NCBI GenBank assembly: GCA_046329555.1
Contig: JAXLUK010000002.1
Span: 128,983 to 192,982, forward strand
Length of the DNA: 64,000 bases
Direction: 5' to 3'
Source of the DNA: Chitinophagales bacterium
GTDB lineage: Bacteria; Bacteroidota; Bacteroidia; Chitinophagales; LD1
Shown: positions 11,901-48,245 of the stretch, piece by piece
Numbering within the stretch: the first letter of the stretch is position 1
Layout of the letters: each line of letters opens with the position of its first letter
Translations under genes and position numbers: made by a program
The notes under the pieces: generated by a model
What the model saw: the letters and a program-made list of their open reading frames with translations, nothing else
Told to the model about the DNA's origin: nothing
The model's database searches: none

Positions 11901-14900
11901 CCCGATGCGGTATAGCTGGCAGCACCCACAGCAAAGGATGTACCCTGGCAGATGACCGGATACAAATCCGTTGTAATCTGAGGAAGTATAGTTACATCGA
12001 GATCTATCACGCTGTCGCATGCCAGCATGTTCGTTAATACTACCTGATACAATCCGGTGGCGCTGTAAAATTGACCATTGTACGCAACGCTATCGCCGAA
12101 GCAGGCGCTCAGCGATAATGATGAACCGCCTGGAATCACATATAGGTTTGTTGTCTGGAAACTATCACATCCCGTAACACTGGTTAATGTGTCGTAATAA
12201 GTTCCGGTAAATGAGTAGTAATTCGAACCAACCTGGATATAATCATCTTCGCAAATCACAACATCCTTAACCACAGTATTCTTCGGACGAATATCCAATT
12301 CCGTACTCACAATACTATCGCAGCCGAAGCTGTTAGGAATAGTATCCAAATAAACGCCTGGTACCATATGCACATTAGCTCCGATAAACAACGTGTCGCC
12401 GAAGCAAAGTGTTACGCTCTGACCAAATGAAGTTTGAGGAAGAATAGTAATTGTTGTCGTAATCACGCTATCACAACTGAAGGCATTCGCAATGGTATCT
12501 GTATAGGTACCGGCTGCCTTATAAACATGACCCGCTACAACAGCTGAATCTCCAAGACAAAACTGCAACCACTGCGCATAAGATGAAGTAGGATTAACCG
12601 TTAAATCAGTATATACGATACTGTCACACAGCAGCATATTCTTGAATGTATCAGCATACAACCCGGCAGTTGTATACGTATGCGTTCCTATTGAGAAACT
12701 CTGACCCTGACAAATGGCAACGCTTTGAGAGGTGCTCGCCGGAATGACATACAACGCAGTTGTAACTACGCTGTCGCAGCTATATTGATTAGTTAGAACA
12801 TCGGTAAAAGTTCCTGAGGTAGTATAGGTACTGCCTCCTACCTGAACAGATTGTCCAGCGCATATCATCAAAGACTGAGTGACACTATCAATCGGATTGA
12901 TAAGAATGGAAGTCGTTAAAACACTATCGCAGCCAGTCACCGAAGTGAGCGTATCGGTATAAGTTCCGGTAGTGTTATAAGTGTGGCTTCCTATGGTTAC
13001 ACTTCCTGAACCGCAGAAGGTTAAAGACTGGCTACCTGTAATCAGATTGCGGACGGTAAGATCCGTAGTCACCACACTATCGCAACCTAAACTATTCAGA
13101 AATGTATCTGTATAAACACCAGATGCATTGTAAGTATGGGTGCCTATCGAGTAGCTGGCACCAAAACAAATAGTTACATTTTGAGAAGAAGCAGTATTCG
13201 GATTTACAGTTAAGTCGGTAAATACAATGCTATCACATAACAACGCATTTTGCAGCGTATCGGTATAAGAGCCGGCAACAGTGTATGTATTACTACCAAT
13301 TGAATAACTCTGACCCTGACAAATTGTTACGTTCTGTGAAGTGCTTTGCGGAATTACATAAACATCAGTTATTACAATACTATCACAACCAAACTGATTA
13401 CCTAAGGTATCTATATAACTTCCGGTCAGGCTATAGCTATTGCTGCCCACTTGCACTGTTTGTCCGAAACAAATGGTGAACGACTGACTGATGTGATCAA
13501 TCGGATTGATTGTTAAGTTAGTTGTCAGAATACTATCGCAACCAGTAACGGAAGTTAAGGTGTCAGTATAGGTGCCTGTAGCTGTATATGTATGGCTTCC
13601 CACATTAACACTTCCAGATCCGCAGAAGGTTAAAGACTGGCTACCTGAAATCAGATTGCGGACGGTAAGATTAGTAGTCACCACACTATCGCAACCTAAA
13701 CTATTCAGAAATGTATCTGTATAAACACCAGATGCATTGTAAGTATTGGCGCCTATCGAGTAGCTGGCACCAAAGCAAATGGTTACATTTTGAGAAGAAG
13801 CAGTATTCGGATTAACCGTTAAGTCGGTAAATACAATGCTATCACATAACAACGCATTTTGTAGCGTATCGGTATAAGAGCCGGCAACAGTGTATGTATT
13901 ACTGCCAATTGAATAACTCTGACCCTGACAAATTGTGATATTCTGCGAAGTACTTTGCGGAATTACATTAACTAAGGTAGTCACGATGCTGTCACAACCA
14001 TATTGATTACCCATGGTATCTACATAAGTACCAGTGGTGCTATATATATTGCTTCCAACCTGAACGGTTTGCCCGAAGCAGATTGTAAATGACTGACTGA
14101 TATTATCAATCGGATTTATCGTCAAATCGGTTGTAACAATACTATCGCATCCTGTTACCGACGCTAACGTGTCTGTGTAACTTCCGGTGGTAGTGTAGGT
14201 ATGACTACCTACAACAACACTTCCAGTGCCGCAGAAGGTGAATGACTGATTGCTGGATATTGGATTTAATACGGTAAGATTAGTAGTCACCACGCTATCG
14301 CAACTCAAACTATTTAACAAAGTGTCGGAATACGTTCCTGACGCAGTATAGGTACTGCTGCCAATGCTATAACTTCCACCATAACAAATAGTCACATTTT
14401 GCGACGAACCTGCAGGAATAACATACAATGAAGTGTTCACTACGCTGTCGCAAACATATTGGTTAGCCAAAACATCAGTGTAGCTTCCGGTTGACGTATA
14501 AACGTTTGAACCTACCACAATACTATCGCCGCTGCAAATAGTAAAAGACTGATTGACTGTATCGGTAGGATTAATGACAAGGGTAGAAACCACAACACTA
14601 TCGCAACCGTTGGTAGCTACCAGGGTATCGGTGTAAGTACCTGCGGAAGTATATGTATGAACGCCAACACTTACACTACCACTTCCGCAGAACGTAATTG
14701 TTTGCGTATCCGTGATCAACGGCATTACGTTTAGATTGGTCGTAATAATACTGTCGCATCCGTATGAATTAGCAAAAGTATCCGCATAGAATCCGGTACT
14801 TGAATAGGTATGTGCTCCAATAGTATAAGATGCCCCAAAGCAAATAGCCACCGCCTGCGTATCGTTGGTGGAAGGATTTACTGTGAGATTGGTAGTTACA

Positions 14901-15871
14901 ATGCTGTCGCAGGTATTGGCACCAATCAAGGTATCAAGGTAGGTTCCAGCTACTGTATAAGAGTGGCTGCCAATGGTATAAGTTTGACCATTACAAATTA
15001 CTACATCCTGCGTATCGGCAGTTGGATACAGTAAATTCAATGGAATTTGTACCGAACTATAGCAACCTTTGAAGTAAGGTAATGATACGATAGCTGTGAA
15101 TGAATCATTGGCAATAGGAACCAATTTAGGTTGAACCACTAAGTTGCCGCGCGCAAATTTCACCACACCGCCGCCGGTTTCGCCACCCACAAAATCTCTT
15201 AAATCAACAGTATCTCCAAGACAACTATTGATAGTAGTAGCGGTAAGATCTGGTGATGGATGTACATTGAAGCTATCCAGATAATTATTGATGCAACCCG
15301 GATTTTGCGCATCAATACTATCACCGTCAAACAACACCTGTGTGTAATGCCAACCTAATGCTAACGTAGAGGGGTCGAAAATTCCAGATGGCAATCCATC
15401 TAAAAAGAAACTGCCTACTCCTGCACCAGTAATGGTTACCGTATCCTGTGCCGAATTCTGACAATAATCGCTATACAAACCATCAATGGTTGCCTGAGGA
15501 TAGTAACAAATGCCGTTGGCAGAGAGCGTATCGGTTCCGTTAGTAACAACTACTGAAAAATTCATGCCGTCGATATGACGGCCCGATAATTCATAAACAC
15601 CTGTACCCAAATCTGTGAGGGGCGTTCCCGGAAGAATTGCATCAGGGGCAACAGGAGGATTACCACTGGTAGTTTGATAGAAGCTATCGGCCGCAACCAC
15701 CACCCAGGCATCGCCTAAATTACCATTTACCTGAATAGTTGAATTGAACTGACCGGTACCATTGCCATTGGCGTTATTACTACAAGCACACGGGCTCACC
15801 GAAATAGTTTGCCCCGTGGCCCATCCGGCTATACAACATCCCACTAAAACTGCGTATAAACGTTTCATCAT
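8924..15871 (-). CDS. 2315-aa repetitive adhesin-like protein with T9SS type B (gliding motility-associated, CHU_C-type) C-terminal sorting domain
   Basis: It has a signal peptide followed by 32 tandem ~51-aa Cys-containing units. The C-terminus (FPDVMTPNGDGKNDVWII...FNRWGEVVF...WNG...LPDGTYYY) matches the type B CTD. It lies directly upstream of a PorP/SprF-family gene, the usual pairing for type B cargo. Confidence 0.85.
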   Translation of the reverse strand: MMKRLYAVLVGCCIAGWATGQTISVSPCACSNNANGNGTGQFNSTIQVNGNLGDAWVVVAADSFYQTTSGNPPVAPDAILPGTPLTDLGTGVYELSGRHIDGMNFSVVVTNGTDTLSANGICYYPQATIDGLYSDYCQNSAQDTVTITGAGVGSFFLDGLPSGIFDPSTLALGWHYTQVLFDGDSIDAQNPGCINNYLDSFNVHPSPDLTATTINSCLGDTVDLRDFVGGETGGGVVKFARGNLVVQPKLVPIANDSFTAIVSLPYFKGCYSSVQIPLNLLYPTADTQDVVICNGQTYTIGSHSYTVAGTYLDTLIGANTCDSIVTTNLTVNPSTNDTQAVAICFGASYTIGAHTYSSTGFYADTFANSYGCDSIITTNLNVMPLITDTQTITFCGSGSVSVGVHTYTSAGTYTDTLVATNGCDSVVVSTLVINPTDTVNQSFTICSGDSIVVGSNVYTSTGSYTDVLANQYVCDSVVNTSLYVIPAGSSQNVTICYGGSYSIGSSTYTASGTYSDTLLNSLSCDSVVTTNLTVLNPISSNQSFTFCGTGSVVVGSHTYTTTGSYTDTLASVTGCDSIVTTDLTINPIDNISQSFTICFGQTVQVGSNIYSTTGTYVDTMGNQYGCDSIVTTLVNVIPQSTSQNITICQGQSYSIGSNTYTVAGSYTDTLQNALLCDSIVFTDLTVNPNTASSQNVTICFGASYSIGANTYNASGVYTDTFLNSLGCDSVVTTNLTVRNLISGSQSLTFCGSGSVNVGSHTYTATGTYTDTLTSVTGCDSILTTNLTINPIDHISQSFTICFGQTVQVGSNSYSLTGSYIDTLGNQFGCDSIVITDVYVIPQSTSQNVTICQGQSYSIGSNTYTVAGSYTDTLQNALLCDSIVFTDLTVNPNTASSQNVTICFGASYSIGTHTYNASGVYTDTFLNSLGCDSVVTTDLTVRNLITGSQSLTFCGSGSVTIGSHTYNTTGTYTDTLTSVTGCDSVLTTSILINPIDSVTQSLMICAGQSVQVGGSTYTTSGTFTDVLTNQYSCDSVVTTALYVIPASTSQSVAICQGQSFSIGTHTYTTAGLYADTFKNMLLCDSIVYTDLTVNPTSSYAQWLQFCLGDSAVVAGHVYKAAGTYTDTIANAFSCDSVITTTITILPQTSFGQSVTLCFGDTLFIGANVHMVPGVYLDTIPNSFGCDSIVSTELDIRPKNTVVKDVVICEDDYIQVGSNYYSFTGTYYDTLTSVTGCDSFQTTNLYVIPGGSSLSLSACFGDSVAYNGQFYSATGLYQVVLTNMLACDSVIDLDVTILPQITTDLYPVICQGTSFAVGAASYTASGDYQDTLTASVGCDSIVVYHLTVTPADSVVQSPVICQGAQVVVGGNTYTTAGDYYDTLVTAGGCDSIVVTHLTVLTVSTTSLNQSICSGDSFVVGNSVYYAAGIYADTLTGVNGCDSIITTDLSVINPVLSAQSFNLCPGQSVSVGVHLYNAAGVFTDTLAAVSGCDSIITTTVTIIPVNFSQSVDICPGQSVAVGAHVYTAAGVYTDTLAASTGCDSILVTTVNVRPYATGNQTLVLCQGQTVSVGVHTYGATGTYTDTLAGVLCDSIVTTNLTVNPASSFAQSLSVCNGQSVTVGIHTYSSAGVYTDTLPNSFGCDSIITTTLQIKNSSFYGQSIFICEGRSYTIGTHTYTLAGTYTDTLVNAALCDSIVSTELLVTPSQRDTQHVVLCANDSLVVGTHVYYASGWYSDTFAAVNTCDSIIVSDLTILPAISTTQSPTICTGASVVVGQHIYTTSGTYRDTLLAVSGCDSVVITNLTVSPIITSTISGSICNGGVYPFNGMNLSAAGVYRDTILGAAVGGCDSVVVLNLTVGSPSATTVNAAICLGSTYVFNGQLLSNAGTYRDTLPNAANCDSVITLNLVVNNNPNLGNDVIDSVCVNNTFNLNSINFGGFTPINFNTPNPGAVPPGTYMAVYIDANTCRDTAMVTIVGKAVAAAPVFVQADSAFCAGTLAHVFAVQNDPGVSYSWTYQGSDASLVQSGNVAVLDLGNTASNGTISVSANSLNGCGSKSAFINVTVAGKPGTTLTSSDADNVICAGESVTLTAAGAGNTVIYINGMAVADNPHVLTATADSVYNILAITTNACTSDSASLQVLGHASPTVDAGADTTVARGSWTQLEGSASGSPPFAYLWYPDSTLNYAIVANPLATPSVDAQYYLTVMDMYGCTATDSVKVVVTPNTNLLFPDVMTPNGDGKNDVWIIDLNQFPSAQVIIFNRWGEVVFESGAYVNDWNGTFKNNGNMLPDGTYYYAVKNKGDSRIYKGAINLLNNKK
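10220..15025 (-). repeat. In-frame tandem repeat region: 32 units of ~153 bp (51 aa)
   Basis: The unit motif is C-x-G-x(5,6)-G-x2-Y-x3-G-x-Y-x-D-T-x(5,6)-C-D-S-[IV]-x3-[LV]. I counted 32 CDS[IV] motifs in the translation. The boundaries are approximate. Confidence 0.8.
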
Positions 15872-29398: not shown

Positions 29399-32300
29399 TT
29401 ATCGCAAAATTACCAGCTTCCCAAAACCCTGCTTGAAATATTTATCGATATTGGTATTGTTGAAGAATCTGGCGGTGTTACCATTAGAATTCATATGATC
29501 CATCTGACGCCCATCCAAATTACTAATCACACGATAGAAATAAACACCATTAGCCAACTTATCGCCATACTGATCGCGGCCATCCCAAGCATATCGGGTG
29601 AGGTTATGTCCGATATGAATATCACCCAATTCCTCTTTCGTAATTTCTTTAACCACGCGACCGGTAATGGTCATAATTTGAATTTTAAGGTAGGTGGGAA
29701 CTTCACTTCCCGTCAGCGTAAAGTCAAAGCGTGTTGAAGTGCTGAATGGATTCGGATAATTAAGCACACTCGACACCATCGGTTTCGTAATAATTTCGAA
29801 AGTAGTGCGGTAATCGTAATGCACGTTTCCAACATACTGATTGGAACTCACGCCGCTGCTATTGCCGTTATTGTCCCGATCCTTAACCAGTAATTCATAG
29901 GTACCATCTACGGTAAAAGCTGGCTTCAGCTCAATTTTCGCCTTATTCATTTTAGAAATATCACCGCTGGCCGGATAGAACGAAAGCACATTACCATCGT
30001 AGGGAAAATATACTGGTTGTGAAACGCCTGGATACTTGATATACACCTGCATCAAAGAGGTATCTTTCAACGCCTGATTTTTGTTTTCATCCCGAAGAGA
30101 AATCAGAATATTAGGTTTGGCAGAAACAATATCGCCATTCATAATATGCTGTCCGTCGAAAGTAACATCCAGCAGCGGATTAATTTTATCGCCTACTGCA
30201 TTAAAGTCGATGAATGCAAAATTATTAAAGTGGAAACGCTCGGGCTGATGTTTAGTGTCAATTGGATTAGCTTCAATGCTTAATCTATTCTTTCCTTCGT
30301 AAACTGAATTTAGCAGGGGCTGCCGGAACTGCAGAATCATCGTATCCAACGCATACAACGAATCTTGCTTAATGATAAACGATTGCTGACTTTGATTCTG
30401 CAAACTTTGCAAGACATACTTCGTTCGCATACTATCCATATTGTAAGTGGAAACATTCTCTAATGCGATTCCCACATTTACAGAATCTCCAATTCCAATG
30501 GTGTCGCGCTGAATTTTGAAATACGCCGTTGGATTCATAGCGGCCTCCGGCACTTCTTTATACAATACTCTCCAATAGTAATTCTGTGATGGCGTATGCG
30601 TGCTATCGTCGCGCGTATACATTCTCAGCCGCACGAAAGGATACTGCGCAGCGTTCACGAAATTCAAAGTTGTATCCAGCGTGGTTGTTTGCAACAGTAC
30701 ATTTTGCGTTCCGTTCTGACGTACACCTATTATTTCAACGTACTGCTGATCCACCGCGGTATTTTCGGCGCGACGGTATCGCCAGTGCACGGATCCCCAT
30801 TCGTTTGCCGGGCCAATCAAAGTTGATTCATAGGTACCTGATTGACGCTTTACGCGAAAGTCGAAACTACTTGAAATTGCAGTATTATAATCTGTTCCAA
30901 TAATTTGTTTGGAATTACCAGGCACGCCTTTCTGGAAAAAGAAAATATAAGGAGCAGCACGGTTGCTATCTACATACAACTGCAGCAAACTGGCGCCAAA
31001 ACCAATCAACTTATTTTTAAGCGTTGCCGGCATCGTACTCCAGTTAGGCCGGTTATCGCTGTACATCACCACATAAGCGCCATTGGGTATGCTATCCAGG
31101 AAATTACTAACCACCTGCGCCCAAGGAATTCCCAGCGATGGATGCGTTGTGTTATCAAAATGAAAATCAAATCCGCTTTGATTAAGGGTTTGCGAAGCGC
31201 AATGATAATTACCGAATCTTCCAAAGTTGGTACCGGTATTTACGCTTTCCCAAATTTCCAGATTATTGGTATCCACTACTCCGAAGGTAATGCCGTTTGT
31301 GCCATTGAGGGCAAATCCACAACTACCCATGCGATAGCGATGTTGGTTGACGCCGTTTAATTGCCATTCCAAATTTGCAGCAGGCAGTTGCCCCCCAGTG
31401 GCATTACTCCATCCGGCCATTGCGTACATACTGTTTAGTCCGCTGTTGTATTTGAACACGCGGTCGCTGTCTAAATAAATCTCTTCGGAATAATTATCCT
31501 TCTTCCATTGATAATAGTGCGACTGATTCCAACCGGGATATTCATCTTTTAAATACAGAAAAGACGAATACTTCCAGCCCTTCGTTAATCCTCCTGCCGA
31601 ATCGGTTCCCACTCTCCAGTAGTACACCGTACTATCGGAAAAAGAAACTGGTACAGTCCAGTGCAAAACACCTCCTTTTTGCGTCACCGTGCCCTGTGCC
31701 AGAATAGTTTGAAATCGCTCCGAAGTATCCAGTTGAAACCGGTAGGTTCTTTCAGGTGCGAAAATATTCACAGTACTGGCTTTAAGCACCGGATTTTGTT
31801 TCGGCACAATAGCGAATTCGTAAGGCCAGATGGGAATTACATCATCACTTTGAATGTAGGTGCTAAACAGCTCCAAACTGCCATTATTTGTTTCGCTCAT
31901 CTCATCGATGCGCGTTTTCGATTCAACAAAAACCTGGAAATCATTCGGACCATAACCATAACTACGGTTATACAACGTAGGAAGTTTAAAAGAGAAAGTG
32001 TCGCGGTAGTACGTGGCACGAACCATTTTCTTATAAATAAATTGCGCGTTGGTGCCGGTTCCATTACCAGTGGTGTCAATTTTTCGGGTAAGCGTAATTT
32101 CAATCGAATCTTTAATAGCTCTGCCCAGATTAGCTACAATGATATTCACCAAAAAAGAGTCGCTTGCAGCATCAATAGTGGTTGGTGTAAAATACACCGA
32201 CTCATTGTCAATTTGATAATCTGGTTTTGGATACTGATACAACTTAACAGCCGGATCGCCGTGCAACGTCATCTCGTAGTTGATGAACATATCAAAATCG

Positions 32301-34606
32301 CTAGAGCCAAAAATGGAATCGTTATCCCGATAAGCGGCTTGTAGTGCCTTACCCCAGGATGTATTATAAGCGCTTGAGCGCAACCGGTCGTAAACAAAGG
32401 TTCCGTAATTATACAAATTACCACTAATAGACGAGCCGCTGGTTGCAGTAAAGATAATCGCTCCCTTACCCGGAGTCAGTACAAATCGTTCACTAAATGT
32501 AGATGGCTGCGAAGCAGAAATAGCGTCGTGAATACTTCCCGCAAAACAACCATTAGAATAGATGATCGGATAGCGTTCGTAGTTCGTCCAGTTCTCTGGT
32601 TGATCAATATCAATGTCAGTTGCCGTACCGGCAGAATGCCCGAAAAGCGACATTAACGCCACACCTGAGTCGCGGCGCTGCGCAATTGCTTCTTTCTGCG
32701 TAACATCTATTGGTGCCGAAGATGTCTTATAGTAAGAAGTAACATGAGTACCCCAACTAGTATCCTGAATTCGGGTGGTCCAATCATCGATATAGGAAGC
32801 CAGTTCTGCTTGTTCTATAGATGTTTCACCACCTCCGAAATGCATCACTTGCTTCATCCAATCCTTTTCAGCCTTTGTTTGATAAGGATCACCCGCGCGA
32901 GCCTGCAAACTTTCATACTGCCGAACTTTCGCCAGGTAATCACGAACTTGTTCAGGGCGCTGAGCCGCCAATCGACCTACCGCCAACAACGGAGCATTAC
33001 TTCCTCTTCTGGTAGCCAATAAATTATCTGAAGCCGGTCTGCCCCAAGTTGGCACTAAACAAGCCGCATACGCCTGTGCAGCACTTTGCCCGCCACCACC
33101 TTGTAATATTTCGCGGTAGTCGCGCCCCTTTCCGATAATGAAAAGGTATTCTGGTTTTTTATTCCAGTTATCGTAGGCGTACTCAATGAAATTGCGTATC
33201 GCCAGAGGTGTTTTGCGAATTCCGTAGCCAAATTGATCAAACAGTTGGTCGATGTCATAAACAGTCCGCGCATCAAACTTTCCGGTAGCCGGATTTGCCG
33301 TCTTATCGCGATATTTCCGAAATTCTTCCACCTGATTCACGCCTAAACTATCTGCAAACAAAGCGCGATTTGAAATAATGATATAGTCGCTTTGTGCGGC
33401 TGCCGCCCGATAGTCGCGAAAGGTCACTGAATCCATACTGGCAATACTGGTTGCGGCATTTGGATTGGAACGAATGAACATTTCCCGCTCTCCAGCTACT
33501 GCAGGTATTACATAGGTTCTTGTAGTACTAGACAAGGCGTTGGACGAAGGAATCATCAAACCATTCGTAAGATCATACAACATGGGCTGCACGCCGGCTG
33601 TTGCATAATTTTGCAAACGGAAGAAACGTGGATTAGTACCCTCACGCAAACGCCACAGAAAATCAGGTGTTCCGCTGAAATCAAATTTTCTGGGATATTC
33701 TAAATCTGCATATAAAATCAAATCCTGATTACCCACACCCTGACTAGGTTGCAGCTCCTCCGTTTTAATCGTATTACTGGCTAAAATAGAATCAATTCGA
33801 ACCTGTGTTACGGTAGGATTATATCCCCATGAATAAAACTGCTTCTGCCAGTAAGGCGTGCCATTCCAGGATAACCGAAGCCAGTGATCTTCCGGACTTC
33901 TGGTAAAAATATAACATCTGCGTATACCGTATTGCGGTCCGTTAGTGTACAGCTTTTGCGTGGTTAAGGTTACTGAACCAGGCGAAGTATTACTAAACCA
34001 GCCTGAGCCAAAACCTTCCGCTTCGTCCCATATTGATTTAAAAATCAGAGAAGTACCCACCTGATAGGCTTTTCCACCAGTGAAGGTAGCCGTATATGTT
34101 TGGCGGGTTACCTGCCAGAAATACAACTCCTCAGGCAAAGCCAGCGTGGTAGCCAGGCTGGTATCATTAGCTACTTGCTGATAACGCCTGTTATTCGTCT
34201 GGTTGTTCACTACCAGAAAATAAATTGAGGTATCGGTGAAATTGCTTTTATAAATATGCGGCTGCCATCCCGATTTTGGATATAATACGGAATCCATATC
34301 GGCAATATTCTTCCTGCCATAGAATTCTATAAAATCAGTGGCGCCTAAGCTAGTTGTGTTGGAAAGATAAATGGGCTCTTGCGTACCGTTGTGATACAGC
34401 GCAATATTGGCGGGATTAACAGAACTAATATTGGGAATGGCCGCGCTTAAAGTGCTGTACGGTATTCGATAAAAACCATCGGTGGTGATTTTTATCTTGT
34501 AATGCACCAGTGAATAATCTATCCACTCGTTTCCATAGCGAAGCGGCTGCGCACCTAAACGCCAGACCAACAACATCAACATGAAAAACAGTAGCCGTTT
34601 ATTCAT
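29399..34606 (-). CDS. PorU-like T9SS C-terminal signal peptidase / sortase (peptidase C25 family), unusually long at 1735 aa
   Basis: The N-terminus (GNEWIDYSLVHYKIKITTDGFYRIPY) is typical of PorU. A caspase-fold His/Cys dyad is present: LFGHSAG (His codon 32636-32638) and YSNGCFAG (Cys codon 32546-32548). About 945 aa follow the protease domain. A CTD-like segment (LNYPNPFSTSTRFDFTL...GVYFYRV) lies near the C-terminus. Confidence 0.75.
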   Translation of the reverse strand: MNKRLLFFMLMLLVWRLGAQPLRYGNEWIDYSLVHYKIKITTDGFYRIPYSTLSAAIPNISSVNPANIALYHNGTQEPIYLSNTTSLGATDFIEFYGRKNIADMDSVLYPKSGWQPHIYKSNFTDTSIYFLVVNNQTNNRRYQQVANDTSLATTLALPEELYFWQVTRQTYTATFTGGKAYQVGTSLIFKSIWDEAEGFGSGWFSNTSPGSVTLTTQKLYTNGPQYGIRRCYIFTRSPEDHWLRLSWNGTPYWQKQFYSWGYNPTVTQVRIDSILASNTIKTEELQPSQGVGNQDLILYADLEYPRKFDFSGTPDFLWRLREGTNPRFFRLQNYATAGVQPMLYDLTNGLMIPSSNALSSTTRTYVIPAVAGEREMFIRSNPNAATSIASMDSVTFRDYRAAAAQSDYIIISNRALFADSLGVNQVEEFRKYRDKTANPATGKFDARTVYDIDQLFDQFGYGIRKTPLAIRNFIEYAYDNWNKKPEYLFIIGKGRDYREILQGGGGQSAAQAYAACLVPTWGRPASDNLLATRRGSNAPLLAVGRLAAQRPEQVRDYLAKVRQYESLQARAGDPYQTKAEKDWMKQVMHFGGGETSIEQAELASYIDDWTTRIQDTSWGTHVTSYYKTSSAPIDVTQKEAIAQRRDSGVALMSLFGHSAGTATDIDIDQPENWTNYERYPIIYSNGCFAGSIHDAISASQPSTFSERFVLTPGKGAIIFTATSGSSISGNLYNYGTFVYDRLRSSAYNTSWGKALQAAYRDNDSIFGSSDFDMFINYEMTLHGDPAVKLYQYPKPDYQIDNESVYFTPTTIDAASDSFLVNIIVANLGRAIKDSIEITLTRKIDTTGNGTGTNAQFIYKKMVRATYYRDTFSFKLPTLYNRSYGYGPNDFQVFVESKTRIDEMSETNNGSLELFSTYIQSDDVIPIWPYEFAIVPKQNPVLKASTVNIFAPERTYRFQLDTSERFQTILAQGTVTQKGGVLHWTVPVSFSDSTVYYWRVGTDSAGGLTKGWKYSSFLYLKDEYPGWNQSHYYQWKKDNYSEEIYLDSDRVFKYNSGLNSMYAMAGWSNATGGQLPAANLEWQLNGVNQHRYRMGSCGFALNGTNGITFGVVDTNNLEIWESVNTGTNFGRFGNYHCASQTLNQSGFDFHFDNTTHPSLGIPWAQVVSNFLDSIPNGAYVVMYSDNRPNWSTMPATLKNKLIGFGASLLQLYVDSNRAAPYIFFFQKGVPGNSKQIIGTDYNTAISSSFDFRVKRQSGTYESTLIGPANEWGSVHWRYRRAENTAVDQQYVEIIGVRQNGTQNVLLQTTTLDTTLNFVNAAQYPFVRLRMYTRDDSTHTPSQNYYWRVLYKEVPEAAMNPTAYFKIQRDTIGIGDSVNVGIALENVSTYNMDSMRTKYVLQSLQNQSQQSFIIKQDSLYALDTMILQFRQPLLNSVYEGKNRLSIEANPIDTKHQPERFHFNNFAFIDFNAVGDKINPLLDVTFDGQHIMNGDIVSAKPNILISLRDENKNQALKDTSLMQVYIKYPGVSQPVYFPYDGNVLSFYPASGDISKMNKAKIELKPAFTVDGTYELLVKDRDNNGNSSGVSSNQYVGNVHYDYRTTFEIITKPMVSSVLNYPNPFSTSTRFDFTLTGSEVPTYLKIQIMTITGRVVKEITKEELGDIHIGHNLTRYAWDGRDQYGDKLANGVYFYRVISNLDGRQMDHMNSNGNTARFFNNTNIDKYFKQGFGKLVILR

Positions 34607-43999: not shown

Positions 44000-44446
44000 A
44001 GCATAGCCGTTTTGCAGAAAGAAATTGCGGTATGGAAGTGCGCTATGCTCAACAATTGAAAGCGCTGCGTTCCGAACATCCAATTGTAGTACCGGTTGAT
44101 TAGATGATGATGGCGGCTGCCTTCGCTGCGCTGCGGCACCGTGCTGCTACAGGGTACGCTTCGCTTCCGCCCGCCACGCCTTCGGCTGGCGGGCCGCTCG
44201 CTGTGCTCGCGCCTTACGCATCACTGCCGCGCGATGGGCACCGGGGCGCATAACCGCACCAGCGCCCCGCATACAACGCGAACGTTCAACCCATCAACCA
44301 TTCGATATTTCAATATCGTACGGTATAAAAAAGTCCTGCTTTCATATGCCTGTATGGATTGTCTAAAACATGCAGCCAGAAAACCCAATCGACGTAGTTG
44401 CACCGATTTAGATTTACCAAACCAATTAGCATGACAAAATCGCCTA

Positions 44447-46024
44447 TTACTGAATAACTACTCTTCCAACATAGGTGTTGCCTGCCTGCCGCACCTCCAC
44501 CATATAAGTGCCTCTACTAATTTCACCCAAATGAATAGGGTTGACGGCTTGTTTAACTACGCGAACTACGGCTCCGCCTTCATCTACCAACTTAATAGAA
44601 GCTTCTTCTGAAATGGCATCCCCGTTGGGCAACTGTATGGTAAACGTACCATGGTTTGGACTGGCGAAAATACGCAATTCGCCTATGGTTTGCTTTGGCG
44701 TTTCACGAATGCCATTGACTTGAGCTAGTTTGGCGAGAAAAAAATCTGAACCTTGGTTTACATCAACATGCAGATTATATGAACCAAAATGGTTGTCACC
44801 CGGATTAAGGCTACCCGTAAAATATACGGCACCTTGTGCATCTACGGCAAAGTCCCGGTAATCAGCAAAAGGCAGTGCCACTAATCCCTTGCACACGCCA
44901 TTCGTATCAAACCGTGCCACGAAATGATCAACAGCGCCAGGTTTTGTTTGAGTAGATGTTATAGTAAATCCGTCAACTGTAAACTGTCCCAGAAAGGCTG
45001 CGTACATGAAAATTTCACCATTAGCGGCCATAACCATCGGACCTCCCGAAACAATGTTGGTTGAGCTTAAAATCCTACTCCAAGCCACATGACGATTTGA
45101 ATCCAATTTTACCAGATAAAAGTTGGTAGCTGTACCAGAAATATGTCGTAATGAGTCATCGCTGAAAGCAATGCTAGAATCAATATTCCCAGCGAAGTAC
45201 ATACTCGATTTTGAATCGATTAAAAAATTAATGTTGGCATCATTGATGGGCATCGACCATTTCAAGGAACCATTGCTTTGCAATGCGCAAAATATAGTTT
45301 GAACCGGAAATGCACTAGGTAAAAAAGGAACTAATTGAGACTGTAGGGTATCGAATGTAAATGCAGAGTCATTAGCCATGAAGCAATAGAGCGTGTTATT
45401 CGCATACTGCATGGCGCCATAAGCGTTATTTGCGCCATTGCTATTTTTCATCCACTTAACTTTACCATTTCCATTAACGTGCGCAATAACATGCTCCGAC
45501 CAATTAAACCCGGGCCGTCTAACACAAAAAGTGTCTATACACGGTCCGTCATAATTCGCACCTCCATATACGTAAACCCCATTGGAGTCGTCAGGAAAGA
45601 CCTTCGTTGCGTAAATGAAGTTTTTGAATTTTTTTGTGACATGTAATGCTGTATCGTACGTCGATAAAAACAAAGAAGTGTCATCGGATCCCGTGAAATA
45701 GATATTGCCTTTTTGCATCTCCATGGAAATGGCGTAGGTAGAACTACCGAAAAATGGAAAGTTGAATGGCGATCCTCCAATCAGTTGGCCGGTATTCGTA
45801 AATTTTGCTAACAGTAATCCCTTTTTGACATAACTATTATTCCATAGATGTAATGAATCGTTGTAGGAAATAGTAGCATAAATATTACCCACGCTGTCAA
45901 CACTCACTGACTTACCTTTTCCATCACCGGACTTTCCTTGAATAGCCCATTGCCATTGCCCAAGTGCAGCAGCGTGAATAAACAGAAAGAAAACAATCTG
46001 TATTGCCAAAAACCTGTTTCTCAT
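44447..46024 (-). CDS. Secreted beta-propeller-like protein with T9SS type A C-terminal domain
   Basis: It has a signal peptide and repeated blade-like segments (GNIY.T, VY.TG). The C-terminus (RIFASPNHGTFTIQLP...GTYMVEVRQ...GRVVIQ) is CTD-like. Confidence 0.7.
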   Translation of the reverse strand: MRNRFLAIQIVFFLFIHAAALGQWQWAIQGKSGDGKGKSVSVDSVGNIYATISYNDSLHLWNNSYVKKGLLLAKFTNTGQLIGGSPFNFPFFGSSTYAISMEMQKGNIYFTGSDDTSLFLSTYDTALHVTKKFKNFIYATKVFPDDSNGVYVYGGANYDGPCIDTFCVRRPGFNWSEHVIAHVNGNGKVKWMKNSNGANNAYGAMQYANNTLYCFMANDSAFTFDTLQSQLVPFLPSAFPVQTIFCALQSNGSLKWSMPINDANINFLIDSKSSMYFAGNIDSSIAFSDDSLRHISGTATNFYLVKLDSNRHVAWSRILSSTNIVSGGPMVMAANGEIFMYAAFLGQFTVDGFTITSTQTKPGAVDHFVARFDTNGVCKGLVALPFADYRDFAVDAQGAVYFTGSLNPGDNHFGSYNLHVDVNQGSDFFLAKLAQVNGIRETPKQTIGELRIFASPNHGTFTIQLPNGDAISEEASIKLVDEGGAVVRVVKQAVNPIHLGEISRGTYMVEVRQAGNTYVGRVVIQ

Positions 46025-46228
46025 AAACTTTCCTTAACTAATTTAAAAAAGTATTGATTGTTCGTGGTTTTACAACTAACCTGATAAACACCTGATGCTC
46101 ATTTTCTACATTAATATTTCCCCCTGATCAATTAATCGCCAGAATGCCGCCATCCCCATCACATCGGTAACAGCAACAGTGATATTTGAATTTAGAACAG
46201 CGGAACCATCAAGCGCAAACATGGCCCA

Positions 46229-47505
46229 CCACACGCAGTGGCACCTAAAATGCGCGAGGTGGCGAAGGCTTCCTATTACCAATCCCGTAGGGATCGCATC
46301 GCTGCATCGCAATGACTGATGCGATTAATTTAATCGTTATGCATAACGCGGAAAATTATTCCATAGGCGGCACAATTTCGTTTTATGCGACCCCTACGGG
46401 GTCAGGTTATATTTCCGCTTAATGTTACCGATCCCGTGGGTATCGCATCGCTGCATCTCAATGATTGATGCGATTAATTTAATCGTTATGCATAACGCGG
46501 AAAATTATTACATAGGCGGCGCAATTTCGTTTTATGCGACCCCTACGGGTCGTAAAACAAACGCTTCCGGGGGAGCTACAGATATATGACCCCTACGGGG
46601 TCAGGTTAGATTCCCGTTTCGTGTTTCCAATCCCGTAGGGATCGCATCTCGGTAACCCGACAGATATATGACCCCTACGGGGTCAGGTTATATTTCCGCT
46701 TAATGTTACCGATCCCGGAGGGATCGCAACGCTGCATCGCAATGATTGATGCGATTAATTTAATCGTTATGCATAACGCGGAAAATTATTCCATAGGCGG
46801 CGCAATTTCGTTTTATGCGACCCCTACGGGGTCGTAATACAAAACGCTTCCGGGGGAGCTACAGATATATGACCCCTACGGGGTCAGGTTATGTTTCCGC
46901 TTAATATTACCAATCTCGTGGGTATCGCATCTCGTTAACCCGACAGATATATGACCCCTACGGGGTCAGGTTAGATTCCCGTTTCGTGTTACCGATCCCG
47001 TGGGTATCGCATCGCCGTAGCCTACGTGAACGATCATTCGAAATTCGGATTCGATGTCCGATGGTTCGATATTCGATGTTGGAAAAATATGAATCACAGA
47101 TTTTAAAATTGGCGTTAACGATGACTTCCCTTAACGAGTGATGCTTAAAAGAATGCCGCTCATCAGGCTTCTTGTTACCGATCCCGGAGGGATCGCATCG
47201 CTGTAGCCTACGTGAACGATCATTCGAAATTCGGATTCGATGTTCGATGGTTCGATATTGGATGTTGGGAAAATATGAATCACAGATTTTAAAATTGGCG
47301 TTTACGATGATTTCCCTTAACGAGTGATGCTTAAAAGAATGCAGCTCATCAGGCTTCTTGTTACCGATCCCGGAGGGATCGCATGGCTGTAGCCCGATGA
47401 TGCGCCAGCCAACGACCCCGTAGGGGTCGCATGTTTGGGAATGTTCCATTTTGCTGTCAATGGCAGCCACACGCAGTGGCGCCTAAAATGCGCGAGGTGG
47501 CGAAG
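46229..47505. repeat. Non-coding mosaic array of palindromic hairpin repeats (REP/BIME-like), bounded by 39-bp direct repeats
   Basis: There are eight copies of TTACC-GATCCC-NNN-GGGATC-GCATC and eight of GACCCC-TAC-GGGGTC, joined by reused linkers. The nested units run 46276-46424 (149 bp), 46425-46705 (281), 46706-46988 (283), 46989-47174 (186) and 47175-47360 (186). Direct repeats CCACACGCAGTGGC[A/G]CCTAAAATGCGCGAGGTGGCGAAG sit at 46229-46267 and 47467-47505. Confidence 0.85.
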
Positions 47506-47678
47506 TGGAAAGCCCACAGCGCACGAGGTACGAGTGCGCGAGGACTTGCAACGAAGCAACCGACCCCGAAGGCAGCGAAGTCTCTTGTTGCTTCAGCGCC
47601 ATGATGCGCTGCCGAAGGGGGCGCGCCCAAATAACGAGCCCCTAACACCTTGTCAACTTTTTCCCCATCTTTCACGCC

Positions 47679-48245
47679 GTGAAACGTCTGGCCATTTTTG
47701 CATCGGGCGGCGGCAGTAATGCCCGGGCCTTATTCGAATATTTTAAAGACGACAACCGCATCCAATTGCCCCTGGTGATTGCCAACAAAGAAGGTGCAGG
47801 CGTTTTTGGCGTGGCGGCTTCATTCGGCGCTACCGCTGTTTGGGTTAAAAAATCGCAACTGAACAACCCTGATTTCTTATTGCCATTGTTGCAACAACAT
47901 CGCATAGACGGCATTTTACTGGCGGGATTTTTGTTGTTGATTCCTCCGTACCTGGTGGCGGCATATCCCCAGGCGATATTGAACATCCATCCCGCCTTGC
48001 TGCCCAAATTCGGCGGCGCCGGCATGCACGGGCATCATGTACACGAGGCCGTTTTAGCCGCGGGCGAAACCGTGAGCGGTCCGACGGTTCATTTGGTGAA
48101 TGAACAATACGACGAGGGCCGCATTCTTGCCCAACAAACGGTGCCTGTGCTGCCCGACGATACGGCTGAAACACTGGCCCGACGCGTGCTGGAAGCCGAG
48201 CACCAACTGTATCCCAAAACCGTTGCTGCGTATTTTATTCGATAA
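47679..48245 (+). CDS. purN: Phosphoribosylglycinamide formyltransferase
   Basis: It shows the LAIFASGGGSN, LAGFL.L.P and NIHPALLPKFGG.GMHG..VH PurN motifs. It uses a GTG start. Confidence 0.88.
   Translation: MKRLAIFASGGGSNARALFEYFKDDNRIQLPLVIANKEGAGVFGVAASFGATAVWVKKSQLNNPDFLLPLLQQHRIDGILLAGFLLLIPPYLVAAYPQAILNIHPALLPKFGGAGMHGHHVHEAVLAAGETVSGPTVHLVNEQYDEGRILAQQTVPVLPDDTAETLARRVLEAEHQLYPKTVAAYFIR

What the first reader, a model, noticed from the sequence alone, without database searches (positions are those of the whole stretch)
46229..47505. 1.3-kb non-coding mosaic array of palindromic hairpins with BIME/REP-like grammar upstream of purN
About 1.65 kb with no credible ORF lies between the start of the 525-aa T9SS cargo gene (46024, minus) and purN (47679, plus). 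Its core reuses a small vocabulary of modules, all in direct orientation. Hairpin P1 (TTACC-GATCCC-NNN-GGGATC-GCATC) has cores starting at 46281, 46430, 46629, 46711, 46912, 46994, 47180 and 47366. Hairpin P2 (GACCCC-TAC-GGGGTC) has cores at 46389, 46538, 46588, 46670, 46819, 46871 and 46953, plus one copy with the loop inverted at 47414. The linkers are X (~90 bp, 3 copies), Z (~36 bp, 2), W (~21 bp, 2), Y (~21 bp, 5 copies in two variants) and V (~155 bp, 2). The modules are nested. P1-X-P2-Y occupies 46276-46424. A ~282-bp higher-order unit P1-X-P2-Z-P2-Y-P1-W-P2-Y then occurs twice (46425-46705 and 46706-46988). Two 186-bp P1-V units follow (46989-47174 and 47175-47360), and then a truncated unit. 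This arrangement of hairpins joined by fixed linkers resembles enterobacterial BIMEs built from REP elements. I know of no characterised equivalent in this phylum. It could be a RAYT-type substrate, a structured RNA array, or a protein-binding or insulator region.
Basis: seen in the sequence. Interest (0 to 1): 0.8.

Follow-up and report, generated by a model that had tools for sequence, protein, structure and literature searches.

The report
REP-like hairpin array of IS200-type enzyme
The 1.3-kb non-coding stretch upstream of purN is a real cluster of small DNA hairpins from a widespread, apparently undescribed repeat family that in other genomes flanks a domesticated IS200-like (Y1/HUH) gene previously thought to have no partner repeats.

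Summary
The array is real. Tandem periods are 149, 283, 82 and 186 nt at 87-95% identity, with 16 hairpins and no credible ORF. Short-read contigs from an independent sample match both edges and break inside it.

One correction: P2 is the reverse complement of a P1-type hairpin, so orientations alternate and P1-X-P2 and P1-W-P2 are inverted doublets.

The hairpins belong to a family, [N4]CC-GNA-GG[N4'] followed by RYAT-N5-TAG, found in Bacteroidota, Ignavibacteria, Verrucomicrobia and Planctomycetes. Members are 85% intergenic, multi-copy and often clustered, and their stems covary.

Y1_Tnp was the top neighbouring protein family (10 of 133 flanking ORFs). Reciprocally, 79 of 80 metagenomic loci chosen only by that protein carry family hairpins within 400 nt (10-12 per kb versus 0.25 per kb).

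The protein matches TnpA_Y1 subclass 1.2 (DHIH, WQ, YIxNQKEHH), which the literature lists as having no REPs.

Best reading: a BIME-like orphan cluster of ssDNA hairpins that are substrates of this enzyme, later amplified by tandem duplication. Catalysis and mobility are inferred. The window holds no Y1 gene and no other family copies, and the source genome could not be searched.

Verdict: new variant of a known kind; interest 0.6.

The parts
46229..46267 (+). Left copy of the 39-bp direct repeat bounding the array (CCACACGCAGTGGCACCTAAAATGCGCGAGGTGGCGAAG)
   Evidence: (D6): only two copies in the window, none expected by chance; no match in any fetched locus. Its role is unexplained.
46281..46403 (.). 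Inverted doublet 1: P1 hairpin (+ oriented, 46281-46295), X linker, P2 hairpin (- oriented, 46389-46403). It is REPIN-like.
   Evidence: I24; as ssDNA it folds into one long hairpin whose stem is P1 paired with P2, with dG -25.4 and -27.0 kcal/mol and z -3.6 and -4.3.
46430..46551 (.). Inverted doublet 2 (P1-X-P2). P1 has one stem mismatch (GATCCCGTGGGTATC) and P2 has a 1-nt deletion (GACCCCTACGGGTC).
   Evidence: It is part of the 149-nt and 283-nt repeats.
46574..46606 (-). P2 hairpin (core 46588-46602) with the canonical family tail on the minus strand: GACCCCGTAGGGGTC-ATAT-ATCTG-TAG-C
   Evidence: full-length match to the covariance model built from other genomes, 20.3 bits, E = 0.021. One search gives the consensus.
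46629..46684 (.). Compact doublet P1-W-P2: two hairpin+tail modules joined tail to tail (GGGATC-GCATCTCGGTAACC|CGACAGATATAT-GACCCC)
   Evidence: sequence; long-hairpin alternative fold, z -2.5 and -2.6; generic long-hairpin models align across it.
46711..46833 (.). Inverted doublet 3 (P1-X-P2), in the second copy of the 283-nt higher-order unit
46857..46889 (-). P2 hairpin (core 46871-46885) with the canonical tail ATATATCTGTAGC on the minus strand
   Evidence: 20.3 bits, E = 0.021, full-length model match.
46912..46967 (.). Second compact doublet P1-W-P2. Its P1 is degenerate (AATCTCGTGGGTATC).
   Evidence: D5.
46989..47174 (+). First 186-nt P1-V unit. The hairpin is at 46994-47008 with tail GCATCGCCGTAGCC; the V linker is not significantly structured.
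   Evidence: 186 nt x2.2, 94%. (V: z -0.8). V has no match elsewhere.
47175..47360 (+). Second 186-nt P1-V unit. The hairpin is at 47180-47194 with the canonical tail GCATCGCTGTAGCC.
47361..47466 (+). Terminal truncated unit: P1 (47366-47380, tail GCATGGCTGTAGCC), a 6-bp hairpin, then a + oriented GACCCCGTAGGGGTC (47414-47428) followed by GCATGTTTG
   Evidence: three hairpins, z -3.6; best model hit in the window, 21.3 bits, E = 0.012; 47408-47437 is 30/30 identical to loci of a Bacteroidales MAG.
47467..47505 (+). Right copy of the 39-bp direct repeat
44447..46024 (-). Left flanking gene (525 aa, weak T9SS C-terminal sorting domain). This is context, not part of the element.
   Evidence: Por_Secre_tail E = 3.4e-5, below Pfam's cutoff. 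Logan contig L207 is identical to window 44152-46346 and ends inside the first X linker.
47679..48245 (+). Right flanking gene purN. This is context.
   Evidence: Logan contig L001 starts at window 47549.

Best explanation
**What it is.** The region is an orphan, BIME-like cluster of REP-like DNA hairpins. Its basic module is a 15-nt hairpin (a 6-bp stem with inner CC/GG and a GNA triloop) plus a tail of about 12-14 nt, RYAT-N5-(G/A)TAG. The same module occurs in many genomes of the FCB group and the PVC group.

**How it most likely works.** In those genomes the module flanks, on both sides, a small IS200-like Y1/HUH gene matching TnpA_Y1 subclass 1.2. I infer that this enzyme recognises the hairpin on single-stranded DNA and cuts and rejoins near the conserved tail, as IS200/IS605 TnpA and E. 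coli TnpA-REP do with their hairpins. That activity would seed modules head to head and tail to tail.

**How the array grew.** In this Chitinophagales genome the seeded modules were then amplified by unequal recombination or replication slippage into the 149-, 283- and 186-nt higher-order repeats. The array encodes nothing. Any present role, such as a spacer, terminator or insulator between the divergent T9SS-cargo gene and purN, would be secondary.

**Shown versus inferred.** Shown: the anatomy, family membership, stem covariation, intergenic dispersal, and the two-way association with the Y1 gene. Inferred: binding, cleavage at or near TAG, mobility, and that the source genome encodes the enzyme.
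For: **Array is real and structured**
- Repeat periods and motif counts far exceed chance.
- Units differ by 5-13%, so they are not assembler stutter.
- Two short-read contigs from sample SRR26348422 are identical to both edges and break inside the array.

**Family**
Several genomes carry 5-10 copies.
- Outside the searched pattern, T at +20 and TAG at +24 to +26 are conserved (63% and 73/66/52%).
- Any perfect 6-bp hairpin followed by NNAT-N5-TAG occurs 142 times, versus about 3 expected and 7 in the mirrored control. About half have different stems that are still complementary.
- Of 195 sites selected by the tail alone, 80% have a hairpin immediately upstream, versus 1% in the downstream control.
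- On the tail-anchored alignment, 73.4% of cells pair versus 55.4% when shuffled, there are 172 double changes versus 68, and the covariation score is 0.448 versus 0.188 (0/500 each). Slid registers score at most 0.21, and G-T pairs are rare.
- 85% of copies are intergenic, and they are rare between divergent genes.
- 52 of 105 loci without a Y1 gene contain clusters of at least 3 hairpins.

**Enzyme link**
- Y1_Tnp is the most recurrent neighbour, matching 10 of 133 flanking ORFs; the next family matches 3.
- All 10 genes are flanked by hairpin arrays.
- Reciprocal test: 79 of 80 loci chosen only by the protein have family hairpins within 400 nt. Density is 10.4-11.6 per kb next to the gene, 0.25 per kb beyond 1 kb, and 0.08 per kb inside the gene.
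- Flanking orientation is inverted.
- Stem types track Y1 relatedness: Jaccard index 0.64 falling to 0.10, Mantel r 0.35, 0 of 2000 permutations.

**Membership of the window's modules**
- A covariance model built only from other genomes places 17 of its 20 window hits in the 1.2-kb array, with the orientations I assigned.

**DNA-level function**
- Loops are GNA triloops.
- Pairing is strictly Watson-Crick.
- Copies occur in both orientations relative to neighbouring genes.
Against: - No Y1 gene lies in the 64-kb window, and the rest of the source genome could not be searched. The enzyme's presence there is assumed.
- No other family copy lies in the 62.7 kb outside the array. A high-copy REP family would be expected to show several, so copy number in this genome may be low.
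- Only 5 of the 16 hairpins carry the canonical N5-TAG tail, and 4 hairpins have stem defects. The X, V, Y, Z and W linkers are unique to this genome.
- Individual covariance-model E-values are marginal (0.012-0.4), because the model is only 33 nt long.
- The array sits between divergent genes, which is rare for the family (4 of 90).
- The raw number of 19-mer hits is not far above my own estimate of chance (about 70 for a 34-bit pattern in 1.2 Tb). Some hits in coding regions of unrelated phyla look like chance matches.
- The association could reflect the Y1 gene inserting into hairpin clusters, and not the enzyme acting on them.
- The stem-versus-protein correlation is confounded by shared descent.
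- No biochemistry exists for subclass 1.2.
Confidence: 0.68

Rival explanations
1. The hairpins act as RNA. The array would be a set of transcription terminators or attenuators, mRNA-stabilising stem-loops, or small RNAs between the two divergent genes.
For: - Seven terminator-like sites (hairpin plus T-rich tract) lie on the + strand of the array, versus 2.6 +/- 2.0 in shuffles.
- The family is depleted between divergent genes and common at gene ends. That is also how terminators and E. coli REPs are distributed.
Against: - No Rfam family matches at the gathering threshold in the window or in 12 related loci. Only noise appears at E <= 10.
- Hairpins occur in both orientations within arrays and relative to neighbouring genes.
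- Stem changes are almost all Watson-Crick on both sides, with few G-U pairs (34 one-sided versus 172 two-sided). An RNA read from one strand would tolerate G-U pairs.
- Loops are GNA triloops, typical of DNA mini-hairpins (the stability claim is from my own knowledge).
- The tight two-sided clustering around one particular gene family has no RNA explanation.
Confidence: 0.12
2. The array is mainly a protein-binding or nucleoid-structuring region, with gyrase-, IHF- or Pol I-type binding as at E. coli BIMEs, or an insulator. It would be kept for host benefit and be independent of any Y1 enzyme.
For: - The exact 15-19-nt core is shared across phyla and is 30/30 identical between this Chitinophagales genome and a Bacteroidales MAG. 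That is more conservation than species-specific REPs usually show and hints at a conserved reader.
- E. coli BIMEs bind such proteins (summarised in PMC6006769).
Against: - Nothing here tests protein binding.
- Several copies in the array are decaying, with stem mismatches and lost tails, which argues against selection on each site.
- The only recurrent neighbouring protein is the Y1 enzyme.
- This reading does not exclude the best explanation. It could be a secondary role of the same elements.
Confidence: 0.1
3. P1-X-P2 is a conventional MITE: terminal inverted repeats mobilised by a DDE transposase, later duplicated in tandem.
For: P1-X-P2 is about 123 nt long with terminal inverted repeats of 16-19 nt (I7 and I24).
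Against: - No target-site duplication flanks the units.
- The same hairpins occur as singletons, in V units, and tail to tail with no internal sequence.
- The X linker occurs nowhere else.
- The family associates with Y1_Tnp genes and not with DDE transposases.
Confidence: 0.04
4. The array, or its copy number, is an assembly artefact of a metagenome-assembled genome.
For: - The source is a MAG.
- Short-read assemblies of the same organism cannot cross the region.
Against: - Both edges, including the first P1 and 50 nt of X, are reproduced exactly in independent contigs.
- Repeat units differ at 5-13% of positions, so they can be told apart.
- Comparable arrays exist in isolate genomes, for example a 189-nt x3.5 array in Terrimonas rubra KCTC 23299.
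- The exact number of internal units remains unverified.
Confidence: 0.04

Closest known systems
Enterobacterial REP/BIME elements with their RAYT (TnpA-REP, class 2 Y1) in a REPtron
   Same: - Short extragenic palindromes.
- Inverted doublets (REPIN-like).
- Mosaic clusters with fixed linkers repeated in tandem.
- Dispersed orphan copies, plus a Y1/HUH gene flanked on both sides by the same hairpins in inverted orientation.
   Different: - There is no GT[AG]G tetranucleotide at the 5' foot. The conserved (G/A)TAG lies 9-10 nt 3' of the hairpin.
- The hairpin is shorter, with a 6-bp stem and a 3-nt loop.
- The associated protein is class 1, IS200-like (Y---Q--HH), and not class 2 (Y---NP). It fails NCBI's RAYT model.
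- The core sequence is shared across phyla, not species-specific.
IS200/IS605 insertion sequences (TnpA of IS608 and ISDra2) and their subterminal hairpins
   Same: - The enzyme family is the same: PF01797 and NF033573, with closest solved structures 2XM3 and 2A6M.
- Small hairpins are read as ssDNA.
- A conserved short sequence about 10 nt 3' of the hairpin recalls the right-end cleavage-site geometry of IS608. That geometry is from my own knowledge of the literature and was not tested here.
   Different: - The gene is not bounded by one left-end and one right-end hairpin in direct orientation. It is flanked by arrays in inverted orientation.
- Most hairpin copies are orphans far from any Y1 gene (105 of 115 loci).
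- PMC6006769 reports subclass 1.2 as low-copy and lacking IS properties.
- No tnpB gene was seen next to these Y1 genes.
REP-like structures of Bacteroidetes RAYT subclasses 2.6 and 2.4 (Quentin et al. 2018, PMC6006769, Table S1)
   Same: They occur in the same phylum and follow the same idea of a Y1 gene flanked by palindromes with copies elsewhere. The 2.6 type has a GCTAG, GCTGG or GGTAG foot followed by a hairpin. That layout resembles the composite 'tail-TAG + second hairpin' form seen in 14% of my family's copies.
   Different: It is a different sequence family (GCTGG-CGCGAGCT-TNT-AGCTCGTGCC). I verified it next to subclass-2.6-like RayT genes in L119-L121, where the GAYCCC hairpin is absent. 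The proteins also differ: about 181 aa with YIHNNP, versus about 153 aa with YIxNQKEHH.
GTAG- and CGTC-tagged palindromic repeats (Di Nocera et al. 2013, PMC3733652)
   Same: Both are surveys or families of small tagged palindromes. That paper reports GTAG repeats in the PVC group and Chloroflexi, and CGTC repeats in Bacteroidetes and Chlorobi.
   Different: In those families the tag sits at one end of the palindrome. Here GTA is the loop, and the TAG is separated from the stem by 9-10 nt. The exact sequences were not found in any held paper.

Membership tests
REP/BIME (RAYT-associated, canonical) | Short imperfect palindromes, extragenic, present in multiple dispersed copies | tested here: met
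   85% of family copies are intergenic. Single genomes among the fetched loci hold 5-10 copies. Copy number in the source genome itself could not be tested, and the rest of the window has none.
REP/BIME (RAYT-associated, canonical) | GT[AG]G tetranucleotide 0-2 nt 5' of the hairpin foot | tested here: not met
   The position profile shows only a C at -1 on the 5' side. The conserved TAG is at +24 to +26, which is 9-10 nt 3' of the stem.
REP/BIME (RAYT-associated, canonical) | Mosaic clusters: REPs in alternating orientation separated by a small set of linkers, repeated in tandem | tested here: met
   Orientation alternates and the P1-X-P2 and P1-W-P2 doublets repeat with 149-, 283- and 82-nt periods.
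REP/BIME (RAYT-associated, canonical) | Cognate class-2 TnpA-REP/RAYT gene (Y---NP motif; NCBIfam NF047646) flanked by the same REPs | tested here: not met
   The flanked gene scores about 32 bits against NF047646 (cutoff 80) and has Y---Q--HH. Genuine subclass-2.6-like RayT genes are flanked by a different REP.
REPtron-like system of TnpA_Y1 subclass 1.2 (proposed here) | Y1 protein of about 150 aa with DH[IV]H, WQ and YIxNQKEHH motifs | tested here: met
   Alignment A2 of 10 neighbouring ORFs matches the signature in PMC6006769 Table 1. Pfam Y1_Tnp E = 1e-26.
REPtron-like system of TnpA_Y1 subclass 1.2 (proposed here) | Gene flanked on both sides by the hairpin family, with orphan copies elsewhere | tested here: met
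   79 of 80 protein-selected loci qualify, with about 45-fold enrichment next to the gene. 105 of 115 motif-selected loci have no Y1 gene next to the motif.
REPtron-like system of TnpA_Y1 subclass 1.2 (proposed here) | The window's hairpins match a model of the family built from other genomes | tested here: met
   17 of the 20 covariance-model hits in the 64-kb window fall in the array. The best E-values are 0.012-0.021, which are individually marginal.
REPtron-like system of TnpA_Y1 subclass 1.2 (proposed here) | The source genome encodes the cognate Y1 gene | not testable with these tools
   There is none in the 64-kb window. The source MAG could not be fetched by exact-protein look-up.
IS200/IS605 insertion sequence | tnpA (with or without tnpB) bounded by one left-end and one right-end subterminal hairpin on the same strand, present as identical multiple copies | tested here: not met
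   The window has no tnpA. In related loci the hairpins form arrays in inverted orientation around the gene. PMC6006769 reports low copy number and no IS features.
MITE (terminal inverted repeats plus target-site duplication) | Terminal inverted repeats with flanking target-site duplication; dispersed full-length copies | tested here: not met
   Terminal inverted repeats are present for P1-X-P2. No duplication flanks the units, and the X linker is absent from all loci and from the rest of the window.
Known RNA families (Rfam 15) | Match at or above a family's gathering score | tested here: not met
   Zero hits in the window. Only noise at E <= 10 in 46000-47700. Nothing relevant in 12 related loci.
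CRISPR array | Identical direct repeats separated by unique spacers | tested here: not met
   The 'spacers' (X, Y, Z, W, V) are themselves repeated and the hairpins alternate in orientation. The only CRISPR-DR model hit has E = 5. cas genes were not searched for.

The most novel reading that the evidence does not exclude
The hairpin+tail is not just a co-evolving selfish REP. On this reading it is a conserved single-stranded-DNA signal, shared almost letter for letter across at least four phyla and read by a domesticated IS200-like enzyme (TnpA_Y1 subclass 1.2) that serves the host. The host function might lie in replication or repair, or in defence, given that some of these Y1 genes sit inside type I restriction-modification operons. 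Arrays like this one would then be functional landing pads or punctuation marks, not debris.
Probability: 0.2. Interest if true: 0.85.

Novelty: new variant of a known kind. Interest (0 to 1): 0.6.

Why it matters
REP/RAYT systems are the textbook case of a domesticated transposase with its genomic repeats, but they are understood almost only in Proteobacteria. The one published survey of the Y1 superfamily lists subclass 1.2 (Cyanobacteria and Bacteroidetes) as IS200-like but with no IS features and no repeats, which leaves its substrate and role unknown.

The evidence here points to a defined candidate substrate: a 15-nt GNA-loop hairpin with a conserved tail. It also shows a REPtron-like arrangement in 79 of 80 independent loci. 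That makes the question directly testable with oligonucleotides and a 150-aa protein.

If it holds, a class-1 (IS200-type) enzyme would have independently evolved the REP lifestyle. It would also give annotators a way to recognise these repeat clusters in Bacteroidota genomes, where they currently break short-read assemblies and go unlabelled.

Tried and rejected
1. **Regex searches for HUH...Y motifs** in the fetched loci found nothing. The Pfam scan of neighbouring ORFs then found the genes.
2. **The abundant Bacteroidota RayT family as partner.** I fished it out with a bait sequence written from memory. It is about 181 aa and subclass-2.6-like. I rejected it because its genes are flanked by a different REP, GCTGG-CGCGAGCT...AGCTCGTGCC.
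3. **A second hairpin right after TAG, as in the canonical REP layout.** It is present in only 14% of copies versus 4% at random, so it is a lineage-specific composite and not a defining feature.
4. **A strict three-hairpin 'canonical unit' downstream of the Y1 gene.** It was found in only 3 of 67 loci under my definition. The GAYCCY central hairpin was found in 9 of 67. The reason is that stems differ between Y1 lineages, so no single unit consensus holds.
5. **Rfam** at gathering and permissive thresholds returned nothing relevant. ARAGORN found no tRNA or tmRNA.
6. **Retrieving the source genome** via its PolA failed because the protein is not on record in the contig index.
7. **Literature searches** for the sequence itself and for REPs of IS200-like enzymes in Bacteroidota found only PMC6006769. 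The Chryseobacterium RayT paper concerns gene location only.
8. **Viral contigs** gave only two matches, from near-identical contigs, so the motif is not phage-borne.
9. **The window's linkers and the 39-bp flank** were searched against all loci and the rest of the window without result.
Full report
**1. The observation**

Window 46229-47505 is a dense nest of repeats.
- Tandem Repeats Finder reports periods of 149 nt (x1.8, 94% matches), 283 nt (x2.2, 91%), 186 nt (x2.2, 94%) and two 82-nt sub-repeats.
- Either motif is expected fewer than 0.1 times by chance in the 64-kb window, and neither occurs outside the array.
- Only short ORFs and one 170-aa reverse-strand ORF running through the repeats are listed.
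- The neighbours are a 525-aa protein with a weak T9SS sorting domain and purN.
- PolA in the window is 100% identical to a protein of a Chitinophagales MAG. The next relatives are about 75% identical.

**2. A correction that changes the grammar**

P2 is not a second kind of hairpin. ATGCGACCCCTACGGG is the reverse complement of the P1-type CCCGTAGGGRTCGCAT (I7 and I24). The only difference is a compensatory T-A to C-G change in the stem.

Orientation therefore alternates along the array: -> <- -> <- <- -> <- -> <- <- -> <- -> -> -> ->.
- P1-X-P2 (three copies) is an inverted doublet. As single-stranded DNA it folds into one long hairpin, with dG -25 to -27 kcal/mol and z -3.6 and -4.3.
- P1-W-P2 (two copies) is a compact doublet in which two hairpin+tail modules abut tail to tail.
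- The V linker is not significantly structured, with z -0.8.
- The whole array is bounded by a 39-bp direct repeat. I cannot explain this repeat.

**3. Is it an artefact?**

Two short-read contigs from one public sample are identical to window 44152-46346 and to the window from 47549 onward. One reads through the left boundary, the first P1 and 50 nt of X. Both stop at the array.

Units differ at 5-13% of positions, so they can be told apart. The edges and the existence of the array are therefore sound. The exact number of internal units still needs long reads.

**4. The hairpins belong to a family found in many genomes**

The raw count is not the argument. By my own estimate a 34-bit pattern gives about 70 chance matches in 1.2 Tb, and a few hits inside genes of unrelated phyla look like chance. 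The argument is what surrounds the hits.
- They are concentrated in Bacteroidota, Ignavibacteria, Balneolaceae, Verrucomicrobia and Planctomycetes.
- Single genomes hold 5-10 of them.
- Positions outside the searched pattern are conserved: C at -1, T at +20, and TAG at +24 to +26.

Generalising, any perfect 6-bp hairpin followed by NNAT-N5-TAG occurs 142 times in about 0.8 Mb of loci. About 3 are expected, and the mirrored control gives 7. Roughly half carry other stems that remain complementary, such as GATGCC/GGCATC, TTTTCC/GGAAAA and TGTCCC/GGGACA. Loops are overwhelmingly GNA.

**5. The structure is under constraint, probably as DNA**

To avoid circularity I selected sites by the tail alone.
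- 156 of 195 such sites have a perfect stem of at least 5 bp ending 0-3 nt upstream. The downstream control gives 2 of 195.
- On the gapless, tail-anchored alignment, 73.4% of cells pair versus 55.4% in shuffles.
- There are 172 changes on both sides versus 68 in shuffles.
- The covariation score is 0.448 versus 0.188. None of 500 shuffles reaches any of these three values.
- Slid registers score at most 0.21, and all seven pairs show compensatory changes.

One-sided (G-T type) changes are few. Copies lie in either orientation relative to neighbouring genes, and no Rfam family matches. From my own knowledge, C-GNA-G loops are typical of very stable DNA mini-hairpins. Together these points favour a DNA-level hairpin over an RNA element.

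**6. Distribution**

85% of copies are intergenic. They are rare between divergent genes, with 4 of 90 cases.

Half of the loci without a Y1 gene hold clusters of at least 3 hairpins, and six hold at least 8. Terrimonas rubra has a non-coding gap of about 1 kb with a 189-nt x3.5 array of two such hairpins. The window's array, with 16 hairpins in 1.2 kb, is at the large end of a continuum.

In multi-copy genomes the shared core sits inside genome-specific repeats of 150-300 nt. In the same way, the window's linkers match nothing elsewhere. Only the core is shared: window 47408-47437 is 30/30 identical to loci of a Bacteroidales MAG.

**7. The associated gene**

My motif regexes found no HUH gene. 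An unbiased Pfam scan of the 133 ORFs immediately flanking the motif then put Y1_Tnp first, with 10 members and best E = 4.7e-28. The next family has 3 members.

The ten proteins are 146-169 aa and 54-69% identical to one another. They carry DHIH, WQEG and YIxNQKEHH. That is the signature of TnpA_Y1 subclass 1.2 in Quentin et al. 2018 (PMC6006769): DH[IV]H, WQ, YIKNQKEHH, median 148 aa, Cyanobacteria and Bacteroidetes.
- They pass NCBI's IS200/IS605 model and fail its RAYT model.
- Their closest solved relatives are ISDra2 and IS608 TnpA.
- All ten genes are flanked by arrays of the hairpin family.

**8. Reciprocal test**

Because those loci were chosen by the hairpin, I scanned metagenomes with the protein alignment alone and kept 80 loci.
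- 79 of 80 have a family-type hairpin within 400 nt of the gene.
- Density is 10.4-11.6 per kb in the 100 nt on either side of the gene.
- It falls to 0.25 per kb beyond 1 kb, and is 0.08 per kb inside the gene.
- Upstream hairpins are mostly in the gene's orientation (84 versus 33) and downstream ones mostly inverted (64 versus 28). This resembles a REPtron and differs from the direct left and right ends of an IS200/IS605 element.
- Stem types shared between loci fall with protein divergence: Jaccard index 0.64 at 80% identity or more, 0.10 below 50%; Mantel r 0.35, 0 of 2000 permutations.

That last result fits enzyme-hairpin co-evolution, but shared descent of whole loci is a confound. The window's GACCCC and GATCCC stems belong to one of the two major types.

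**9. Not the known Bacteroidota RAYT-REP pair**

A separate, very conserved RayT family (about 181 aa, YIHNNP, subclass-2.6-like) is flanked by GCTGG-CGCGAGCT-TNT-AGCTCGTGCC. That is the type listed in Quentin's Table S1. So REP-like repeats are already described in this phylum, but they are a different family with a different enzyme.

**10. Do the window's modules belong to the family?**

A covariance model built only from other genomes' tail-anchored sites gives 20 hits at E <= 10 in the whole window.
- 17 lie in the array.
- P1 copies are called on the + strand and P2 copies on the - strand.
- The best hits are 47413-47436 (E = 0.012) and the two full-length hairpin+tail copies at 46574-46606 and 46857-46889 (E = 0.021).

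Individually these are marginal, because the model has only 33 positions. Their concentration is not marginal. Five of the 16 hairpins keep the canonical N5-TAG tail, two have TAA, and four hairpins have stem defects. The array is therefore partly decayed.

**11. Mechanism (inferred)**

By analogy with IS200/IS605 TnpA and E. coli TnpA-REP, which bind hairpins on single-stranded DNA and cut at a short sequence nearby (established literature, summarised in PMC6006769), I propose the following.
- The subclass-1.2 enzyme recognises the GNA-loop hairpin and acts at or near the conserved tail.
- This activity disperses modules and joins them head to head and tail to tail.
- The 149-, 283- and 186-nt higher-order repeats then arose by ordinary unequal recombination or replication slippage.

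In the window, sequences downstream of the P1 hairpins stay alike through GCATCGCTG-TA(G/A)CC and then diverge into V, W or the terminal unit. In W, two tails abut exactly. Both points fit a module boundary just after the tail.

**12. Weak points**
- The window has no Y1 gene and no other family copy in 62.7 kb.
- The source genome could not be searched.
- The array lies between divergent genes, which is unusual for the family.
- The association could mean that the gene inserts into hairpin clusters.
- There is no biochemistry for subclass 1.2.

**13. Novelty**

[quoted passage not shown] The hairpin sequence appears in no held paper, and other searches found nothing.

Within the limits of that library, the hairpin family and its link to subclass 1.2 appear undescribed. 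The window's array is one orphan cluster of the family. I rate it a new variant of a known kind (REP/BIME with a Y1 enzyme), with interest 0.6.

Noticed in passing
L202 (GCA_019638435.1 JAHBTT010000001.1 47471-53932), L203-L206: In Chitinophagales, subclass-1.2-like Y1 genes sit inside type I restriction-modification operons, in the order hsdR, Y1 (its start overlaps the hsdR stop), hsdM, a second Y1 of 145 aa, a small ORF, then hsdS. Exactly one three-hairpin unit starts 4 nt after the first Y1 stop codon.
   Followed up: partly
window 46229-46267 and 47467-47505: A 39-bp direct repeat (38 of 39 identical) brackets the whole array, and the similarity extends a few bases further left with an indel. 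It matches nothing in any fetched locus. It could be a long duplication made when the array formed, or another small repeat. It remains unexplained.
   Followed up: partly
window 47506-47678: The stretch between the array and purN is GC-rich (about 56%) and holds further hairpins (GCGCAC...GTGCGC and GAAGCAAC...GTTGCTTC). It loosely resembles the GCGCGAGC-type REP of subclass 2.6 RayT genes. The short-read contig L001 starts only at 47549, inside this stretch.
   Followed up: no
L119 and L120 (JGI contigs), L121 (Pontibacter locisalis JBHULU010000001.1): Subclass-2.6-like RayT genes are flanked by GCTGG-CGCGAGCT-TNT-AGCTCGTGCC palindromes. L119 holds three Y1_Tnp genes within 8.5 kb, each followed by the same palindrome.
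   Followed up: partly
L047, L052, L054, L068, L069, L076, L113 (Phycisphaerales JACKHI010000001.1); L009 and others (Bacteroidales STF2_19); L021 and others (Porphyromonas S30M_St_68): In these genomes the shared hairpin is the core of a genome-specific repeat of about 150-300 nt with several further GC-rich hairpins, present in at least 7-10 copies. None matches Rfam.
   Followed up: partly
L098 5024-6601 (Bacteroidales STF1_159): 25 family hairpins lie in 1.6 kb next to a Y1 gene, including a run of TTTTTCC-TAC-GGAAAAA hairpins at a 42-nt spacing. This is the largest cluster seen.
   Followed up: no
window 8924-15871 (minus strand, 2315-aa ORF) and neighbouring ORFs: A very large ORF is built of diverged repeats with periods of 150-153 and 609 nt, so the periodicity is at the protein level. 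Other giant ORFs lie at 273-5861 and 29399-34606. One weak covariance-model hit (14038-14070, E = 0.035) falls inside the first ORF and is probably chance.
   Followed up: no
L002 and L003 (IMG/VR contigs): These are the only two viral contigs carrying the 19-mer. Their flanks are identical to each other, with the hairpin between two copies of a CGTAAG...CTTACG palindrome.
   Followed up: no
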